Virus record (IMG/VR): IMGVR_UViG_3300029288_001872
Location: 125,633 to 189,632 of that record
Source: a virus
Lineage: Duplodnaviria; Caudoviricetes
Reading direction: 5' to 3' (one strand)
Length of the DNA stretch: 64,000 bases
Shown: positions 5,020 through 62,083 of the stretch, one piece after another
Numbering within the stretch: position 1 is the stretch's first letter
Layout of the letters: every line of letters starts with the position of its first letter
Made by a program: the position numbers and the translations under genes
The notes under the pieces: model-generated
Database searches by the model: none
What the model saw: the letters and a program-made list of their open reading frames with translations, nothing else
Told to the model about the DNA's origin: nothing

Positions 5020-5096
5020 CGGCCCTTGGCGCAGTCTGGTAGCGCACTTGCCTTGGGCGCAAGGGGTCCTTGGTTCAAATCCAAGAGGGCCGACCA
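5020..5096 (+). tRNA. tRNA-Pro(TGG)
   Basis: Cloverleaf: CGGCCCT/AGGGCCG acceptor, CTTGC-CTTGGGC-GCAAG anticodon arm, TTCAAAT T-loop, encoded CCA. Confidence 0.95.
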
Positions 5097-11212: not shown

Positions 11213-11328
11213 GGTATGGTCGGGTCAGGTTTGGTATGGTTGGGTCTGGTGTGGTGAGGTCAGGTAGGGTTAGGTAAGGTGTGGTAAGGTGAGGGTGTAA
11301 GTCTAGAAAATTAGGCTTACACAGTTTT
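11213..11328 (+). ncRNA. guide array A: 16 x GGT-NN plus terminal hairpin
   Basis: Perfect 5-nt periodicity 11213-11292; stem 11295-11305/11312-11322 followed by AGTTTT. Confidence 0.8.
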
Positions 11329-24672: not shown

Positions 24673-24748
24673 GCGGGGATAGCTCAATTGGTAGAGCGCA
24701 GACCTTCCCGGTCTGAGGTTGAAGGATCATACCCTTCTCCCCGCTCCA
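24673..24748 (+). tRNA. tRNA-Gly(TCC), atypical loops
   Basis: GCGGGGA/TCCCCGC acceptor, T73, CCA; anticodon loop CTTCCCG; T-loop ATCATAC. Confidence 0.8.
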
Positions 24749-29176: not shown

Positions 29177-29205
29177 TTGACAAACATTGGGAAAAATTCT
29201 ACAAT
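29177..29205 (+). promoter_or_regulatory. promoter of the RAMP/guide-array locus
   Basis: TTGACA-17nt-TACAAT. Confidence 0.65.
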
Positions 29206-29359
29206 AAAGATAGTCAAAATTTTCATTTCCCATCCTCCTAAACCCCTAACCCTGTCCCATCTGAAAATGGTGGGGCAGGAACTTTTGCCAAAAATTAGGC
29301 GCTATGTCCCAGCGTTAAACCAAGGGACTTAAACCATAAAAGAGAGAGGTAAGCAAAAA

Positions 29360-30019
29360 ATGGCAGCAAAGAAAGACGTAACTGGAATTGTTCCAAGAAA
29401 AGATGTGGCAATCCCGCCTCCACAATTTCAAACTGTTGAGTTTACAATTGTTGGTGATGCTCCTTATGTCCAACAAAGATTTTCTCAGAAGGCAATTGAG
29501 CAAATCAAGGCGGTCCAACTGGCAGGTTCCAAGAGCAAGAAAGGAAAGGCTCGCGAACCAAAAGATTTTCAAGAATGTTATGAACAAGCTAAACACATTT
29601 CGACAGAAGGCTGGTGTGGTATTCCTGCATCTTCCTTTCGTGCTGCAATGATTTCTGCTTGTCGTTTGGTTGGGTTTAAGATGACTTTGGCTAAACTTTC
29701 AATTTTCATTCCTGCTGATGGTTTTGATGTGGTTGATGGAACACCATTGATTAAGTTTTCTAAAGGCGAACCGCGCTATGTTGAACACGCTATGAGAATT
29801 CCTGGTATTGGTGGCGGAGGTACAGATATTCGCCCTCGTCCGATGTGGGACCCAGGTTGGGAAGCAAAAGTGCGTGTCACTTTTGATGAGGCGCAATTTT
29901 CCGCGGAAGATGTAACCAATTTGATGATGAGGGTTGGTATGCAAGTTGGTTTGGGTGAAGGTCGCCCCGATTCCAGAAGTAGTGTTGGTATGGGATGGGG
30001 GACTTTCCAACTGAAATAA
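29360..30019 (+). CDS. stand-alone Cas7/RAMP-like protein (candidate guide-binding effector)
   Basis: N-terminal strand 'VEFTIVGDAPY', IPASSFRAAM (RAMP IPgSslKGa-like), C-terminal G-rich loop GLGEGRP..GMGWGTF; directly followed by the arrays. Confidence 0.75.
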   Translation: MAAKKDVTGIVPRKDVAIPPPQFQTVEFTIVGDAPYVQQRFSQKAIEQIKAVQLAGSKSKKGKAREPKDFQECYEQAKHISTEGWCGIPASSFRAAMISACRLVGFKMTLAKLSIFIPADGFDVVDGTPLIKFSKGEPRYVEHAMRIPGIGGGGTDIRPRPMWDPGWEAKVRVTFDEAQFSAEDVTNLMMRVGMQVGLGEGRPDSRSSVGMGWGTFQLK

Positions 30020-30027
30020 AATAAGTG

Positions 30028-30066
30028 TTCTTGAGGGGGTTCTTATAAAGAGAATCTTCTCAAGAA
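30028..30066 (+). other. stem-loop between RAMP gene and first array
   Basis: TTCTTGAGGGGGTTCT pairs with AGAATCTTCTCAAGAA (G-U allowed). Confidence 0.6.
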
Positions 30067-30071
30067 ATTAT

Positions 30072-30740
30072 GGCAGGCGTGACGACACAAGTTCAGATAG
30101 GGAGAGATGCGTTGGGGTGAGTCTTGGACTGTTAAGGCAGGTAAGACATGGCAAGTAAGACATGGCAAGTTGCAACCAGATATGTTATGGCGGTTTAAGT
30201 TATGGTTCGGCAGGCTATGCTAGTCGGGCTGAGGCTGGTTGAGACCCGTTAGGTTATGGCAGGTGTGACATGACAAGTGATATACGATTAGTTGAGTTAG
30301 GTTTTGGTTGATCGTGTTATGGTTTGGCAGGCCAAGAGTGATGAGATATGTCTTGGTAGGTTAAATTATGGCGGGGAGTATCATGACACGGCAGGTATGA
30401 CGAGACGCCACGAGAGAAGACAAGGAGTGTTGCTGTGCGACTTAACAAGGCAGGCAATTCCTCCTCTTGGCTAGTCGGGGCTTGGCAGGCGTGTTGAGAC
30501 TTTACAAGTTGAGTGTAATGAGTTAAGTTCTGTCACGATAGGGTTAGGCAAAGCAGGTACGACGACACAAGTTATGGTAAGTTCTGGGTGTTACAATGTG
30601 TTGGGTTCAGGCAAGGGTGGCAGGCTATGCTAGTCAGGTTGAGATTAGTTGAGATGATTTCTGGCGAGTTAAGACATAGCAGGTAGGATGAGTTACGTCC
30701 TGATAAGGTTTGTTCTGTCCTGATTTGTCAAGGCAGGCAA
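30072..30740 (+). repeat. guide array U: about 11 units delimited by GGCAGG/AGCAGG, each about 9-13 [triplet+NN] pentamers
   Basis: Delimiters at 30072, 30136, 30209, 30258, 30326, 30390, 30449, 30484, 30552, 30619, 30678, 30732; spacing often 4+5n. Confidence 0.8.
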
Positions 30741-30769
30741 GATAAATAATTAACCACAAGGAGAACTAA

Positions 30770-31258
30770 ATGATGGTAAAGAAACATTTGGATGAGTTGA
30801 ACCAAATTATGGAAGAAAATGGTGGATTACTTCGAGCGGAAGATGTTGTTGAATTCGCCAAAAATCCTAAGACAACTTTGCATAATGCGTTTGAGTGGGA
30901 TGATAAGAAGGCTTCTTATAAATGGAGGTTATTTCAAGCCAATCAACTCATCAGAGTTGCAGTTACTATTCTCCCAAGAGAAAACCAAGAACCCATTATG
31001 GTTCGGCCTTTCGTCAGTTTGAAAGAAGACAGATATAATGGTGGAGGTTATCGTTCCACACTGGAAGTAATGGAAAGTCCAATTCTCAGAAAAACGCTAT
31101 TGGATGAAGCTAAAGAGGATATGCAAACTTTCATGGATAAATACAAATCTTTGGAAGAACTTGCGGAAGTCTTTGTTGCAATGGAACCTTTAATTGTTCC
31201 ACCACCCACTAAAGGACAAAGAAAGTATAAAAGGGTTGAACAACAATTATCAGCTTGA
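30770..31258 (+). CDS. conserved phage protein embedded between the two arrays (candidate accessory subunit)
   Basis: RBS AGGAG; 'GGLLRAEDVVEFAKNPKTTLHNAFEWDDKKA..RL.QA.QLIR'. Confidence 0.7.
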   Translation: MMVKKHLDELNQIMEENGGLLRAEDVVEFAKNPKTTLHNAFEWDDKKASYKWRLFQANQLIRVAVTILPRENQEPIMVRPFVSLKEDRYNGGGYRSTLEVMESPILRKTLLDEAKEDMQTFMDKYKSLEELAEVFVAMEPLIVPPPTKGQRKYKRVEQQLSA

Positions 31259-31268
31259 TGTTTTATAT

Positions 31269-31632
31269 GGCAGGTATGGCACGTTTCGATTTGGTAGGAC
31301 ATGGTGTGTTTGGTCGCATTCTGGTACTTCAAGGCAGGTGTAACAAAGACGAGTCGAGATGAGTTCGGTTGTGGTGAGTTTTAATATGGAAAGATACGTT
31401 GAGGTTCGATACGGCAGGTAAGACAAGATAAGACAAGGAGTGGTGCTACTTGCCCCGATTTGTTAGGTTGAGGAGTTATACGGCAGGTCAGACGTGTCCG
31501 GTTGAGACAAGACATGGTGGGATATGACACGGTTTGTCGGGTTGAGATAAGCAAGGCATGGCAGGCGCGGCAGGTTGAGGCATGGCGCAATGTGACGTGG
31601 TGCGCTGGGGCAAGACAAGAAGAGACATAGCA
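31269..31632 (+). repeat. guide array V: 5 GGCAGG-delimited units; V2-V4 decode to recA
   Basis: Delimiters at 31269, 31333, 31413, 31482, 31560, end AGCA 31629. Confidence 0.85.
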
Positions 31633-31655
31633 ATTTTATTTTGAAGGAGAAATAA

Positions 31656-32756
31656 ATGGCAGGACCAAAGAAAAGAGAAATATCAGATACGGTAAGTCAA
31701 ATCAAAGAAGTTGCAAATTCTCCTATTGTTACTGATGATTCACGGGTGGATTTCCTTGATTCTGGAAGTACATTGTTGAATTTGGCGGCAAGTCAATTTG
31801 GTAAGAATGGAGGTTGGGCGCGAGGTCGAATTATCAATATTGTCGGTGATAAAAGTTCAGGTAAATCAATCACTTGCATTGAAGCCTGCGCTAATGCCTT
31901 CTACAATATTGGAAAGGTAAAATCAAAAATTTATCCAGATGTCCAACAAATTAATATAGTTTACAATAATTCAGAAGGGGTTCTTGACTTCCCAATCGAA
32001 ACCATGTACGGTAAAGCATTTAATGAGTCGGTCAATTGGATTCAAACGCCGATTGCAGAATCTTTCGGACGTGACTTTCAACAACGCCTTGCTGCTTTGA
32101 AGAAAGGTGAATTTATGTTATATGTTGTTGATTCAATTGATTCTTTGGTGTCTGAGGCTGCCGCAAAAAGAATGAGTCAAGTGTTGTCAGATAAAAAAGT
32201 AGATGGTAGTTATGGTGTTGAAAAAGCAAAATTTTTTAGTTCTGAATTCTTTAATCATCTTTGTGGAGCAATGAAGGGGAAAGATGCGACATTGATTTGT
32301 GTGTCTCAAGTTAGAGAAAATATCTCCACAATCAGTTTTGGAGAACGATATTATCGCACTGGTGGAAAGGCATTTGATTTTTATAGTCATCAAGTTTGTT
32401 GGCTTGCAGTTGTTGAAAAATTAAAAAAGACATTTCGTGGTCAAGAAAGAGTATACGGTGTAAAAACACGAGCAAGATTTAAGAAATCTAAAGTATCAAA
32501 ACCTTTCAGAGAAGCAGATTTTACAATTTTATTTGACTATGGTTTAGACAATGTTTCATCATTGGTTGATTATTATTTCGGTCCAAAAGCGAAAGAAATT
32601 GAATGGAAAAACGAAAAGTTAAAAACACAAGATTTTCTCCAGCGGCTTGATAATTCACCAGAAGATTTGGAACTTTTGAAAGACTTGGTTGAAAAAGATT
32701 GGCTTGAAATTGAAGAACATGTCAAACCGGAACGCAAACCGAGGTGGACAGATTAA
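31656..32756 (+). CDS. recA: RecA/UvsX recombinase
   Basis: SGSTLLN, GRIINIVGDKSSGKS, VVDSI, SQVRE, KSKVSKPFRE. Confidence 0.9.
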   Translation: MAGPKKREISDTVSQIKEVANSPIVTDDSRVDFLDSGSTLLNLAASQFGKNGGWARGRIINIVGDKSSGKSITCIEACANAFYNIGKVKSKIYPDVQQINIVYNNSEGVLDFPIETMYGKAFNESVNWIQTPIAESFGRDFQQRLAALKKGEFMLYVVDSIDSLVSEAAAKRMSQVLSDKKVDGSYGVEKAKFFSSEFFNHLCGAMKGKDATLICVSQVRENISTISFGERYYRTGGKAFDFYSHQVCWLAVVEKLKKTFRGQERVYGVKTRARFKKSKVSKPFREADFTILFDYGLDNVSSLVDYYFGPKAKEIEWKNEKLKTQDFLQRLDNSPEDLELLKDLVEKDWLEIEEHVKPERKPRWTD

Positions 32757-37464: not shown

Positions 37465-37548
37465 ATCGGTGTGGCGGAACGGAATACGCAGTTGCCTCAA
37501 GAGCAACCGGAGAAATCCATAGGAGTTCGAATCTCCTCACCGATACCA
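37465..37548 (+). tRNA. tRNA-Leu(CAA)
   Basis: ATCGGTG/CACCGAT acceptor, GTTGC-CTCAAGA-GCAAC arm, long variable arm, TTCGAAT, CCA. Confidence 0.92.
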
Positions 37549-37558
37549 AAACAAGAAT

Positions 37559-37634
37559 GGACTCGTAATTCAGTTGGTAGAAGCCTCAACTCATAATTGA
37601 GTAGTCTCCCGTTCGAGTCGGGACGAGTCCACCA
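37559..37634 (+). tRNA. tRNA-CAT (elongator Met or Ile2)
   Basis: GGACTCG/CGAGTCC acceptor, CTCAA-CTCATAA-TTGAG arm, TTCGAGT, CCA. Confidence 0.9.
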
Positions 37635-39125: not shown

Positions 39126-39825
39126 ATGCTTTCTTTCCAATGTGATAAATGCAAGAAACTTAGCAATAATATATTTGGCGGTCAATGCGTCATTGAAAAA
39201 GATGGTGTTCAACTTGAAGTTTGTGTAAAATGTTCTGAAAAACTTCAAAAGAAGGATTGGAAAGAAATTTCCAGAGCCAGATAAGGAGGAATCAATGCCA
39301 AAAATAACTTGCAATCAATGTAGAAAAAATGTAGTTAAAGACTTGGAATATGCAGCTTGGTTGTCTTTGATGAATTTCCTTTCATTTCTTTATTATGAGG
39401 AGCAGATTACTAAATTGACCTATGAAACTATGCAGAATGATTTGATGATTCTAAAGCCTTGGAGAACTTCACAAGAGGAGGAGTTGGAAGGCATTATAGA
39501 AAATCTTGAAAAGAGAGATATTACTATTGAGGATGTAATTAAAAAACTAAGGAAAGATTATTATGAAGAAGATTAATCCTGTTGTTATTGATAAAGTGAA
39601 ATTTTTCTTAGATTATGATGGTTGCGCTTTCTTTCTTATGTGCAGGGACGAATATCGAACCGTATCACCAACTTGGGTTGAAGGCAAAGGCAGAAACAAA
39701 ACTACTCATTCAGTACAACTTAAAGAAGGGATGGAAGTGAAAAATTTCATGCGCGGCCTTGGCCTTTTGAATGATTGGACAGATAAAGATTTTGATAAAG
39801 GATGGATAAAAGTTATTGAAATGAT

Positions 39826-39898
39826 ATTGGAAGATATATGCAAATAACATTGGAAGATATATGCAAATAACATTGGAAGATATATGCAAATAACATTG
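39826..39898 (+). repeat. three perfect 23-bp tandem repeats (ATTGGAAGATATATGCAAATAAC)
   Basis: Copies at 39826, 39849, 39872. Confidence 0.9.
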
Positions 39899-40515
39899 AA
39901 AGGTAGACAATGTGGAAAAACACACGATATGGTCAGGAAGGTTATGGCAGTTGGGGAAGACGCTATTATGGTAGTGTTTTCCAAGGAGGAAAAAGACAGA
40001 ATTATAAAAGTATATAAAATGAATTATCCAAATATTGGAGATAGAGTATTAACATTTTCAGATAGAAAAGAATTGATTAAAGAGCACCCAAGCACTTGGA
40101 ATTTATATGTTGATAATGCTGATATTATATTACAAATGTTATTAGGATGGGGAATAAGTGAAATAACTATGACAAAAGGAAAAGAAGATGTGTAGAGTAG
40201 ACCCAGAAACAAAATGTGATGAATGTGGTGGAAGGATGTATTTAAACGATTGGGCTGAAAAAGATAAAGAAAAATGGGTGTGTATGAATTGTAAGAAAGA
40301 AATTAAAATTAAATGAAATTATAAAGGAGGATTAAAAATGTCTTTTCAATGTGAACGCTGTGGCAAGGTAACTGACAAAATCACTTACAAAATTGTTAAG
40401 GAAGAACCAAAGGAAGTCAAAGGTTTGTGTTCATATTGCGAGATGGGCATTAAAATCAAAGACGATTCTCTTTTAGACGCCAATCCATACAGATACGCCC
40501 TTGGAACAATAGATA

Positions 40516-59394: not shown

Positions 59395-59542
59395 GGTAAG
59401 GTGCGGTTGGGTGAGGTATGGTATGGTCAGGTATGGTCTGGTAAGGTTAGGTGGGGTCGTGTAGGGTGAGGTTTGGTAAGGTATGGTAAGGGTTTGGTTG
59501 TCATTTTCCAATTAAATCTTATTGGAAAATGACAACAATTTT
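59395..59542 (+). ncRNA. guide array B: 19 x GGT-NN plus 16-bp hairpin
   Basis: Pentamers 59395-59489; stem 59497-59512/59521-59536 then AATTTT. Confidence 0.8.
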
Positions 59543-60737: not shown

Positions 60738-60881
60738 GGTACGGTGAGGTGGGGTAAGGTAGGGTATGGTTTGGTACTGTCCAGTATGGTTTGGTGGGGT
60801 AAGGTTTGGTAAGGTTGGGTGTGGTAAGGTGAGGGTTGCTTCTTTTGTTTTAACAATTTGATAGAAAGAAGCAACAGTTTT
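60738..60881 (+). ncRNA. guide array C: 19 x (G)GT-NN plus hairpin
   Basis: Pentamers 60738-60832; stem GTTGCTTCTTT/AAAGAAGCAAC then AGTTTT. Confidence 0.8.
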
Positions 60882-61951: not shown

Positions 61952-62068
61952 GGTCCGGTTCGGTACGGTATGGTTAGGTATGGTCAGGTCCGGTTTGGTA
62001 AGGTTTGGTCGGGTAGGGTAAGGTGAGGGTACTAATCCTACTACACTCGGTAGGATTAGTACAATTTT
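61952..62068 (+). ncRNA. guide array D: 15 x GGT-NN plus hairpin
   Basis: Pentamers 61952-62026; stem 62029-62042/62049-62062 then AATTTT. Confidence 0.8.
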
Positions 62069-62083
62069 TAAGGATTTAAAAAT

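What the first reader, a model, noticed from the sequence alone, without database searches (positions are those of the whole stretch)
29177..31632. Candidate RNA-guided system: stand-alone Cas7/RAMP-like gene, partner gene and arrays of pentameric gapped-code guides
Seen: promoter, then a 219-aa protein with RAMP hallmarks (IPASSFRAAM and a terminal Gly-rich loop), a hairpin, about 11 units, a 162-aa gene and 5 more units. Each unit starts GGCA and then runs 9-15 pentamers of a semi-constant triplet (GGY/GAY/GTY) plus a variable NN. No cas1/2/3/6/10 and no conventional CRISPR repeat-spacer array was seen in the window. Established: Cas7-family RAMPs polymerise along guide RNAs with a fixed step. 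Inference: one subunit binds per 5 nt and holds the triplet, so only NN is presented to the target, and GGCA marks guide boundaries. From memory this resembles the recently reported viral VIPR systems (RAMP plus GGY/NN RNAs), which I cannot verify here. The degenerate-triplet, GGCA-delimited polycistronic form with an embedded partner gene may be a distinct subtype.
Basis: partly seen in the sequence, partly recalled or inferred. Interest (0 to 1): 0.97.

Follow-up and report, generated by a model that had tools for sequence, protein, structure and literature searches.

The report
Phage VIPR locus targeting rival recombinases
This is a genuine new example of the recently described phage VIPR system (a lone Cas7-like protein, a small partner protein and guide RNAs built from five-letter repeats), and at least one guide exactly spells a conserved stretch of the recombinase gene of other phages but not of this phage's own copy.

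Summary
It is a VIPR locus, a kind described in 2026 preprints, and this scan has already noted VIPR-type loci in at least 225 other genomes.

- **Protein:** the 219-aa protein folds as a Cas7-type RAMP (pLDDT 93.5; Z up to 12.4 to Cmr/Csm3). It falls in the same PHROG family as the founding Vipr of phage SUSP1.
- **Arrays:** both are 5-nt periodic, with G at position 1 (87-90%), A/G/T at position 2 and Y at position 3 (84-85%). GGCAGGY occurs 16 times against 0.04 expected.
- **Relatives:** six related loci show vipr, vap and GCAGGY-delimited units of 5n-1 nt, which fits the published "staggered" arrays.
- **Decoded guide:** unit 31486-31550 reads QVREKIGITFGEK. Only the published 1-nt-skip rule gives matches: 25/26 and 49 sites at 80% or more in related uvsX loci, and five exact 26/26 matches in IMG/VR, all inside recA/uvsX-like genes. 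There are none in 596 Gb of cellular genomes, and the phage's own uvsX scores 15/26.
- **Insertion:** the 2.36-kb cassette sits between a conserved promoter and uvsX. 86 related loci lack it.
- **Solo guides:** nine canonical GGT/NN guides lie elsewhere in the genome.
- **Open:** the targets of the upstream array are unknown, and the VIPR type could not be assigned.

The parts
29177..29205 (+). Sigma-70-type promoter TTGACA-17-TACAAT. In sister phages the same promoter directly precedes uvsX.
   Evidence: 11/12 match. Conserved in L019 and L020.
29251..29282 (+). Conserved leader hairpin ending in GGGGCAGGAAC. The left junction of the cassette lies just after it, at about 29283-29286.
   Evidence: Alignment of the window with L019 and L020, read directly from the sequence.
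29360..30019 (+). vipr: 219-aa stand-alone Cas7-like RAMP.
   Evidence: AF2 pLDDT 93.5. VIA Z 12.4/11.6/10.8 to Cmr-beta, Csm3 and Csm3. Foldseek top hits are Csm3. phrog_4652 at 1.5e-10, the same family as SUSP1 Vipr at 2.1e-98. hhalign 93.4% probability.
30028..30066 (+). 17-bp hairpin between vipr and the first guide unit. It has no T-run, and its role (processing or attenuation) is unknown.
   Evidence: dG -21.7, z -5.5.
30072..30745 (+). Array A: about 13-14 guide units of G-D-Y/NN pentamers delimited by GGCA(G/A)G. Includes two 14-nt 'empty' units at 30136-30163. Targets unknown.
   Evidence: Target searches were negative.
30770..31258 (+). vap: 162-aa accessory protein (phrog_15946) with a winged-helix-like N-terminal half. 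It follows vipr in 6 of 6 related loci.
31269..31625 (+). Array C: 5-6 guide units of the same G-D-Y/NN type, directly upstream of uvsX.
31333..31412 (+). Guide C2 (16 pentamers). It matches the N-terminal region of rival uvsX genes in frame: up to 25/32, own copy 20/32.
31417..31481 (+). Guide C3 (13 pentamers, decodes KKNKVALPFREVT). It matches the homologous uvsX site in frame: 21/26 in L020, own copy 18/26. This is weak evidence, because the Lys-rich start raises chance matches.
   Evidence: No exact match in IMG/VR.
31486..31550 (+). Guide C4 (13 pentamers starting right after GGCA, decodes QVREKIGITFGEK). It matches phage uvsX/recA-like genes exactly.
31656..32756 (+). The phage's own uvsX/RecA-like recombinase. 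Its allele is mismatched to guides C2-C4, with a one-codon insertion at the C4 site.
   Evidence: Pfam RecA 4.8e-20.

Best explanation
The stretch is a VIPR (Viral Interference Programmable Repeat) cassette of about 2.36 kb. It lies in an uncultured 189.6-kb phage, inserted between the promoter/leader and the coding sequence of the uvsX recombinase gene.

Proposed mechanism:
1. One promoter most likely transcribes vipr, array A, vap, array C and uvsX as a single RNA.
2. The transcript is cut into guide RNAs at or near the GGCA(G)G boundaries. Units are 5n-1 nt, the 'staggered' form.
3. Vipr, a Cas7-like RAMP, polymerises on each guide with one protomer per pentamer. It holds the scaffold triplet, here G, then A/G/T, then C/T, and exposes positions 4-5.
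4. The exposed dinucleotides pair with double-stranded DNA while skipping every third base, the codon wobble position.
5. The complex binds, and most likely silences, genes of other phages that infect the same cell.

At least guide C4, and probably C2 and C3, are aimed at uvsX alleles of other phages. The phage's own uvsX is mismatched and so escapes.

Shown here: the anatomy, the RAMP fold, the family link to SUSP1 Vipr, the insertion, the 1-nt-skip decoding and the exact non-self matches.

Inferred from the published SUSP1 work: filament assembly, DNA binding, transcriptional silencing and processing of the array.
For: Fold and family:
- RAMP fold.
- Same PHROG family as SUSP1 Vipr and hhalign 93.4% probability.

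Conserved architecture:
- vipr, array, vap, array in Cy-LDV1 and five IMG/VR loci.
- Period-5 G-D-Y/NN arrays, z 15-19.
- GGCAGGY enriched about 400-fold.

Guide C4:
- 25/26 at best and 49 sites at 80% or more under the 1-nt skip.
- No sites under skip 0, 2 or 3, and at most 19-22/26 when other pentamer positions are read.
- Five exact 26/26 matches in IMG/VR, all inside uvsX/recA-like genes.
- None in 596 Gb of cellular genomes.
- The equivalent exact patterns of A1, A8, A13 and C3 gave no hits.

Orientation and frame:
- C2, C3 and C4 all fall in frame 0 at homologous uvsX sites.
- All are sense to the gene. They cannot pair with its mRNA and must read the template DNA strand.

Self versus non-self:
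- The own uvsX scores 15/26, 18/26 and 20/32.

Insertion:
- Sister phages L019 and L020, and 86 related SSB (single-strand DNA-binding protein gene)-uvsX loci in all, lack the cassette.

Published mechanism: bioRxiv 10.64898/2026.04.26.720920 and .720927.
Against: - Only one unit (C4) has an unambiguous target. C2 is marginal (25/32 against a null maximum of 24), and C3 does no better under the 1-nt skip than under the 2-nt skip.
- C1, C5 and all of the roughly 13 units of array A have no identified target.
- C4 spells a very conserved RecA-family motif, so its breadth of matches partly reflects motif conservation rather than a specific rival.
- No single locus in hand matches C2, C3 and C4 all at 80% or more. 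The best, L036, gives 75%, 73% and 85%.
- The closest sister, L019, carries the same mismatched uvsX allele without the cassette, so the 'escape' allele is not tied to the cassette.
- Transcription, processing, RNA binding and silencing were not tested.
Confidence: 0.85

Rival explanations
1. The vipr-flanking G-D-Y arrays are decaying relics of former GGY guides. The working guides of this phage are only the nine clean GGT/NN solo vrRNAs elsewhere in the genome, and the C4 match is a leftover.
For: Position 2 of the scaffold is relaxed, whereas the solo guides and the arrays of related high-GC loci keep GG. About 15 of 18 units have no identifiable target. Some units have internal phase shifts, and two are 14-nt 'empty' units.
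Against: G1 stays at 87-90% and Y3 at 84-85% in a 34% GC genome, which is hard to keep without selection. A 13-pentamer guide keeps 26 of 26 informative bases identical to real phage genes. Non-canonical scaffolds including GAC/NN next to Vipr-like proteins are in print.
Confidence: 0.1
2. The arrays serve the phage's own gene regulation or act as decoys. Because they sit in the 5' untranslated region of uvsX, Vipr binding to the nascent RNA could tune uvsX expression. Alternatively they could soak up a rival's Vipr, as satellite solo vrRNAs are reported to redirect it.
For: The cassette lies between the uvsX promoter and uvsX, with no intrinsic terminator on the + strand in between. Decoy and redirecting vrRNAs are described in bioRxiv 10.64898/2026.10.15.759431.
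Against: The own uvsX gene matches the guides poorly, at 58-69%, and no self-target passes the null. A decoy role does not explain why a guide spells a foreign uvsX allele exactly.
Confidence: 0.07
3. It is an orphan CRISPR type III/IV-like Cas7 that targets RNA, not a VIPR DNA binder.
For: The nearest solved folds are RNA-targeting Csm3, Cmr4, Cmr6 and gRAMP.
Against: There is no Cas1, no CRISPR array and no other cas gene. The repeats are pentamers, not repeat-spacer units. The matched guides have the same sense as the target mRNA and so cannot pair with it. The protein shares a sequence family with SUSP1 Vipr.
Confidence: 0.02

Closest known systems
VIPR systems with 'staggered' vrRNA arrays (bioRxiv 10.64898/2026.04.26.720920, fig. 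S18 legend). Nearest sequenced relative here: Cyanophage Cy-LDV1 g34/g33 (BK059895.1).
   Same: Stand-alone Vipr RAMP (58.6% identical to Cy-LDV1 g34) and the same vap family, phrog_15946. Arrays lie on both sides of vap, with units delimited by GGC-A-GGC and lengths of 5n-1 nt. The locus is phage-borne with no cas genes.
   Different: The scaffold triplet here is G, then A/G/T, then C/T, instead of GGC. The host phage is a 34% GC, 189.6-kb lytic-looking phage rather than a high-GC temperate one. The cassette sits inside the uvsX 5' leader. The type number could not be assigned, because the figures and data tables are not held.
Type II VIPR of Escherichia phage SUSP1 (Vipr YP_009199429.1, vap1 YP_009199428.1), the experimentally characterised exemplar
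   Same: Same PHROG family for Vipr (phrog_4652). Two-gene locus with flanking pentamer guides. The 1-nt-skip code with the skip on the wobble base. Non-self targets in competing mobile elements.
   Different: Direct identity is confined to the G-loop region (30% over 44 aa). SUSP1's W178, which stacks on G2, aligns with a Gly that is invariant in the 71-sequence alignment of this family. vap belongs to another family (phrog_5926 against phrog_15946). SUSP1 guides are about 100 nt with a pseudoknot tail and strict GGY. Here the locus guides have no tail, and the solo guides end in a plain hairpin. SUSP1 targets a satellite; here the target is a phage recombinase.
Non-canonical VIPR repeat patterns (GAC/NN, CAC/NN, WGT/NN, TGH/NN), bioRxiv 10.64898/2026.10.21.760802
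   Same: Period-5 arrays beside a Vipr-like fold whose fixed triplet departs from GGY. GAC is the commonest single triplet at the second pentamer of units here.
   Different: Those clusters are described as having one dominant triplet or one degenerate position per cluster. Here GAC, GAT, GTT, GTC, GGT and GGC are mixed within a single unit, and the same genome also carries strict GGT/NN guides.
Solo (orphan) vrRNAs of satellites and VIPR-null phages (bioRxiv 10.64898/2026.10.15.759431)
   Same: Stand-alone GGY/NN guide genes far from any vipr.
   Different: Here the nine solo guides lie in a phage that does carry vipr. Four of them best match the 3' end of the gene immediately upstream.
CRISPR class 1 Cas7 backbone subunits (Csm3, Cmr4, Cas7)
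   Same: RRM core, thumb hairpin and glycine-rich loop, with Z 9-12.
   Different: No partner cas genes, no repeat-spacer array, a 5-nt rather than 6-nt register, and a gapped code.

Membership tests
VIPR system | Vipr protein: a small stand-alone RAMP with RRM core, thumb and G-loop | tested here: met
   AF2 pLDDT 93.5, pTM 0.87. The top 36 VIA hits are all CRISPR RAMPs, Z 12.4 to 6.9, rmsd 2.5-4.8 A over 113-157 residues. The C-terminal loop GEGRP...GMGWG is Gly-rich, with G193, G201, R202 and G214 invariant.
VIPR system | Sequence homology to described Vipr proteins | tested here: met
   phrog_4652 matches this protein at 1.5e-10 over residues 24-217. It matches the SUSP1 vipr ORF at 2.1e-98 and 7.9e-96. 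hhalign of the family profile against SUSP1 Vipr gives 93.4% probability, C-terminal 56 columns only. UniProt X1U2U4 itself could not be fetched.
VIPR system | Flanking non-coding arrays of tandem pentamers: conserved triplet (GGY or a related consensus) alternating with variable NN, 9-16 repeats | tested here: met
   Period 5 with z 15-19. G1 87-90% and Y3 84-85%. Position 2 is relaxed to A/G/T, so this is a 'related consensus', not strict GGY. Units run from 2 to 16 pentamers.
VIPR system | Noncontiguous code: NN read with a 1-nt skip, the skip falling on the codon wobble position | tested here: met
   Guide C4 gives matches only under skip 1: 49 sites at 80% or more against none under other skips. 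All are in frame 0, and there are five exact 26/26 matches. This was shown clearly for one guide, and less clearly for two more.
VIPR system | vap accessory gene next to vipr | tested here: met
   The 162-aa ORF belongs to phrog_15946 and follows vipr in 6 of 6 related loci. Its fold is winged-helix-like at only Z 5-6.2. Which of vap1-6 it is cannot be told, except that it is not SUSP1 vap1.
VIPR system | Viral context, no CRISPR array, no other cas genes | tested here: met
   The record is a 189.6-kb IMG/VR virus with a CheckV completeness estimate of 100%. No Cas1 and no repeat-spacer array. Cas2, Cas3, Cas6 and Cas10 were not searched individually.
VIPR system | vrRNAs are expressed, bound by Vipr, and direct dsDNA binding and transcriptional silencing | not testable with these tools
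   Needs small-RNA sequencing, pull-down and reporter assays.
VIPR type II (SUSP1 / P. fulva) | vap1 accessory gene and about 100-nt guides with an invariant pseudoknot tail | tested here: not met
   vap is phrog_15946, not phrog_5926, and BLASTP gives E = 8. Locus guides have no tail, and solo guides end in plain hairpins of unrelated sequence.
VIPR with staggered arrays (fig. S18) | Adjacent vrRNAs overlap by 1 nt, so unit length is 5n-1 | tested here: met
   GCAGGY spacing in related loci is 39, 44, 49, 54, 59 or 64 nt. In the window, 10 of about 18 spacings are 4 mod 5. Only the figure legend could be read, not the figure.
CRISPR-Cas class 1 effector | Cas7 accompanied by other cas genes and a repeat-spacer array | tested here: not met
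   The neighbours are a gp32-like SSB gene and uvsX.

The most novel reading that the evidence does not exclude
In this phage, guides sit next to the gene whose foreign alleles they spell, and always in the sense orientation.

- Array C lies directly upstream of uvsX.
- Four solo guides lie directly downstream of their cognate genes.
- The resident copy of each such gene is mismatched to its guide.

This would mean that VIPR guides are born from, or travel with, the neighbouring gene. Guide plus immune allele would then form a linked unit that excludes rival alleles and spreads by recombination between co-infecting phages. That would be a primitive, Cas1-free route to new guides.

It would also mean that a single Vipr serves two guide dialects: strict GGT with a hairpin tail, and staggered G-D-Y.
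Probability: 0.25. Interest if true: 0.8.

Novelty: new member of a known kind. Interest (0 to 1): 0.5.

Why it matters
VIPR was described only in 2026, and its natural targets are known for few clades: satellites, prophage regulators and other VIPR systems. This locus adds three things.

- A core replication and recombination gene (uvsX/RecA) of rival phages is a target, with the phage's own allele mismatched.
- The 1-nt-skip code still holds when the second scaffold base is free. That bears on what Vipr really needs to recognise, and therefore on guide design.
- There is a clear case of cassette insertion into a conserved SSB (single-strand DNA-binding protein gene)-uvsX module.

Together with nine solo guides spread over the genome, this makes the phage a good natural model for asking how guides arise and whether one Vipr serves several guide forms.

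Tried and rejected
- **Self-targeting:** none of the 18 locus guides or 9 solo guides has a match in the phage's own genome above the shuffled-guide null under the 1-nt skip.
- **Targets of array A, C1 and C5:** no significant match in 750 kb of related SSB-uvsX loci, in three larger rival contigs (83, 31 and 45 kb), or in the five exact-match contigs. None in 270 Vipr and 120 Vap homologue proteins read as codon sets, nor in the phage's own proteome. Exact patterns of A1, A8 and A13 found nothing in IMG/VR. A12 gives 16/18 in frame in a coiled-coil ATPase-like ORF of G002, but this equals the null maximum.
- **Does scaffold position 2 encode the skipped wobble base?** Agreement with the best targets was 2-8 of 12, which is not consistent.
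- **Host recA as the C4 target:** no exact match in 185,579 species genomes.
- **Second vipr in the genome to serve the GGT solo guides:** none found with the protein, the family profile or phrog_4652.
- **Relatives of the solo-guide 3' handle GGTAAGGTGAGGG in IMG/VR:** none.
- **PDB sequence search with Vipr:** no hit, so the VIPR cryo-EM entries are not in the copy searched.
- **Pfam:** no family for Vipr or vap.
- The 6-kb ENA contig carrying an 89%-identical vap (P0272), the best candidate for a close relative of the arrays, could not be read.
- **VIPR type I-VII:** could not be assigned, because the figures and data tables of the paper are not held.
Full report
**What is there**

The window is the last 64 kb of a 189,632-bp IMG/VR virus record, 34% GC, with a CheckV completeness estimate of 100%. 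The finding's stretch contains, in order:
- a near-consensus promoter, TTGACA-17-TACAAT, at 29177-29205;
- a 219-aa ORF at 29360-30019;
- a 17-bp hairpin at 30028-30066 (dG -21.7, z -5.5);
- a 674-nt non-coding array, A, at 30072-30745;
- a 162-aa ORF at 30770-31258;
- a 357-nt array, C, at 31269-31625;
- the uvsX/RecA-like gene at 31656-32756.

A gp32-like SSB (single-strand DNA-binding protein) gene lies upstream.

**The arrays**

Both arrays are 5-nt periodic well beyond chance, with z = 19 and 15 against shuffles. A tracker that rewards only G at position 1 gives:
- G1 at 87-90%;
- position 2 as A/G/T in near-equal shares, with C at 7-8%;
- Y3 at 84-85%;
- variable positions 4-5.

GGCAGGY occurs 16 times in the 1049 nt of array, against 0.04 expected. 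Ten of about 18 spacings are 4 mod 5, that is 5n-1. So the boundary is a four-letter 'GGC-A' unit followed in phase by the next pentamers.

The arrays show no codon periodicity. There is no Rfam match, no CRISPR-like repeat and no Cas1 in the genome.

**The protein**

- The family is large: 6,954 hits in one database and 2,105 clusters at 50% identity in another. It has no Pfam family.
- An AlphaFold model built from 71 sequences is confident (pLDDT 93.5, pTM 0.87).
- A search over 48,161 PDB representatives returns only CRISPR RAMPs in the first 36 rows. The top hits are Cmr-beta 6s6b_I (Z 12.4, 152 aa, 3.4 A), Csm3 9g9a_D (Z 11.6), Csm3 6ae2_B (Z 10.8) and gRAMP (Z 10.7). Foldseek agrees.
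- phrog_4652 matches this protein at 1.5e-10 over nearly its whole length. In Escherichia phage SUSP1 it matches, at 2.1e-98, the ORF that lies between the GGY/NN tracts, which is the published vipr.
- Profile comparison with SUSP1 Vipr gives 93.4% probability over the thumb-to-G-loop part.

It is therefore a Vipr, distant from the SUSP1 type II protein.

**The partner gene**

The 162-aa protein belongs to phrog_15946, not the SUSP1 vap1 family phrog_5926. It has 416 homologues, all unnamed, and its nearest ESM Atlas clusters are virus-only hypothetical proteins. Its first 100 residues give only winged-helix matches at modest Z of 5.0-6.2. That fits, weakly, the 'WH-like' DNA-binding Vaps mentioned in the paper.

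**Relatives**

Cyanophage Cy-LDV1 (Vipr 58.6% identical) and five IMG/VR contigs (55-60%) all have vipr followed by this vap. Their GGC/NN arrays have GCAGGY boundaries spaced 39, 44, 49, 54, 59 or 64 nt apart. This 5n-1 rule fits the 'staggered arrays ... 1 nt overlapping' in the legend of fig. S18 of bioRxiv 10.64898/2026.04.26.720920.

The GGCA-delimited layout with an embedded partner gene is therefore a property of the clade, not a new subtype. What is particular to this low-GC phage is the free second scaffold base. Scaffolds such as GAC/NN have since been reported next to Vipr-like folds (bioRxiv 10.64898/2026.10.21.760802).

**An insertion**

The closest sister fragment, L019 (UvsX 97% identical), and L020 (66%) carry the same SSB gene, the same promoter and the same leader hairpin. 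In both, uvsX follows directly. The cassette, about 29286-31644, is absent from them and from all 86 related SSB-uvsX loci collected. A conserved SSB-uvsX module has therefore gained a 2.36-kb VIPR cassette inside the uvsX leader.

No + strand intrinsic terminator separates the promoter from uvsX. One transcript covering vipr, array A, vap, array C and uvsX is the simplest reading. This is an inference.

**What the guides read**

An earlier first-reader note of this scan (e1-5823467) suggested that array C spells RecA motifs, and I tested that. Positions 4-5 were read with the published 1-nt skip and scanned against 750 kb of related loci.

Guide C4 (31486-31550, 13 pentamers beginning right after GGCA) decodes to QVREKIGITFGEK.
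- It reaches 25/26 under the 1-nt skip, with 49 sites at 80% or more.
- It gives no such site under skips of 0, 2 or 3.
- It gives at most 19-22/26 if other pentamer positions are taken as informative.
- All its matches are in frame, with the skip on the wobble base, at the homologous uvsX site.
- The exact 26-base pattern occurs in five IMG/VR contigs, each time inside a recA/uvsX-like gene. It does not occur in 596 Gb of bacterial and archaeal genomes.
- The exact patterns of four other units found nothing.
- The phage's own uvsX has a one-codon insertion there (QVRENISTISFGER) and scores 15/26.

C2 reaches 25/32 against a null maximum of 24. C3 reaches 21/26 and also falls in frame at homologous uvsX sites, but it is not significant on its own.

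The matched guides have the same sense as the gene. They cannot pair with its mRNA, so the target must be the template DNA strand, as expected for VIPR.

**Cautions**

- C4 spells one of the most conserved RecA-family motifs, so its breadth of matches is partly motif conservation.
- No single locus in hand matches C2, C3 and C4 together at 80% or more. The best is L036, at 75%, 73% and 85%.
- The sister L019 has the same mismatched allele without the cassette.
- An earlier checked finding of this scan (e1-5205340) warns against over-reading guides that match conserved motifs.
- Array A, C1 and C5 have no identified target.

**Outside the given coordinates**

The genome holds nine canonical GGT/NN tracts of 12-21 repeats. 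All are on the + strand, and six lie in this window. Most are followed by GGG and a perfect 11-16 bp hairpin whose sequence differs in every copy, then (C)A(A/G)TTTT.

Only one vipr exists in the genome. For four of these solo guides, the best match in the phage's own proteome is the C-terminus of the gene immediately upstream, in sense. This agrees with other notes of this scan (e1-5823485, e1-5823468). Solo vrRNAs are in print for satellites and vipr-less phages. Here they accompany a resident vipr.

**Verdict**

This is a real VIPR locus, a known kind described in four 2026 preprints, and this scan has already noted VIPR-type loci in at least 225 genomes. It is a new, low-GC member of the staggered-array clade.

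Three points are worth recording:
- a scaffold with a free second base that still obeys the 1-nt-skip code;
- insertion into the uvsX leader;
- a guide that exactly spells the recombinase gene of other phages.

Expression, binding and silencing remain untested.

Noticed in passing
window 11213-11327, 59395-59540, 60738-60880, 61952-62070, 63104-63173, 63207-63340; also genome 1116-1195, 12072-12146, 115703-115762: Nine canonical solo vrRNA genes (GGT/NN x12-21), all on the + strand and in intergenic gaps. Most end in GGG plus a perfect 11-16 bp hairpin of unrelated sequence plus (C)A(A/G)TTTT. For four of them, the best match in the phage's own proteome is the C-terminus of the gene immediately upstream, in sense.
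   Followed up: partly
window 29275-29285 and 31656-31666: The cassette is bracketed by GGGGCAGGAAC (end of the leader hairpin) and ATGGCAGGACC (start of uvsX). Both contain the array's own boundary word GGCAGG. Similar words exist in the cassette-free sister L019 (GCAGGAAC and ATGGCAGGACC), so they are not target-site duplications. They could be microhomology used for insertion, or coincidence.
   Followed up: no
window 30136-30170: A 14-nt unit, GGCA(G/A)GTAAGACAT, is repeated 2.5 times (TRF, 95% matches). These look like 'empty' guide units consisting only of the boundary and the first two pentamers. Many full units start in a similar way (GGCAGGYNNGACNN), which suggests a semi-conserved 5' end.
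   Followed up: no
window 39819-39902: A 23-nt direct repeat AAATAACATTGGAAGATATATGC, 3.7 copies, 95% identical. It looks like an iteron and is unrelated to VIPR.
   Followed up: no
loci L003, L019, L021: A vipr-homologue locus (L003), the closest cassette-free sister phage (L019) and a rival whose uvsX matches guide C4 at 24/26 (L021) all come from the same metagenome, IMG 3300009285.
   Followed up: no
window 5020-5096, 24673-24748, 37465-37548, 37559-37634: Four phage tRNA genes: Pro-TGG, Gly-TCC, Leu-CAA, Met-CAT.
   Followed up: no
SUSP1 Vipr G-loop versus this clade, residues 197-214: SUSP1's GVGDWRP aligns with GLGEGRP here. The Trp that stacks on scaffold base G2 in the cryo-EM structure is replaced by Gly201, invariant in the 71-sequence family alignment. 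An 8-residue insertion follows, ending in GMGWG. This may relate to the relaxed position 2, but high-GC clade members with the same motif keep GG.
   Followed up: partly
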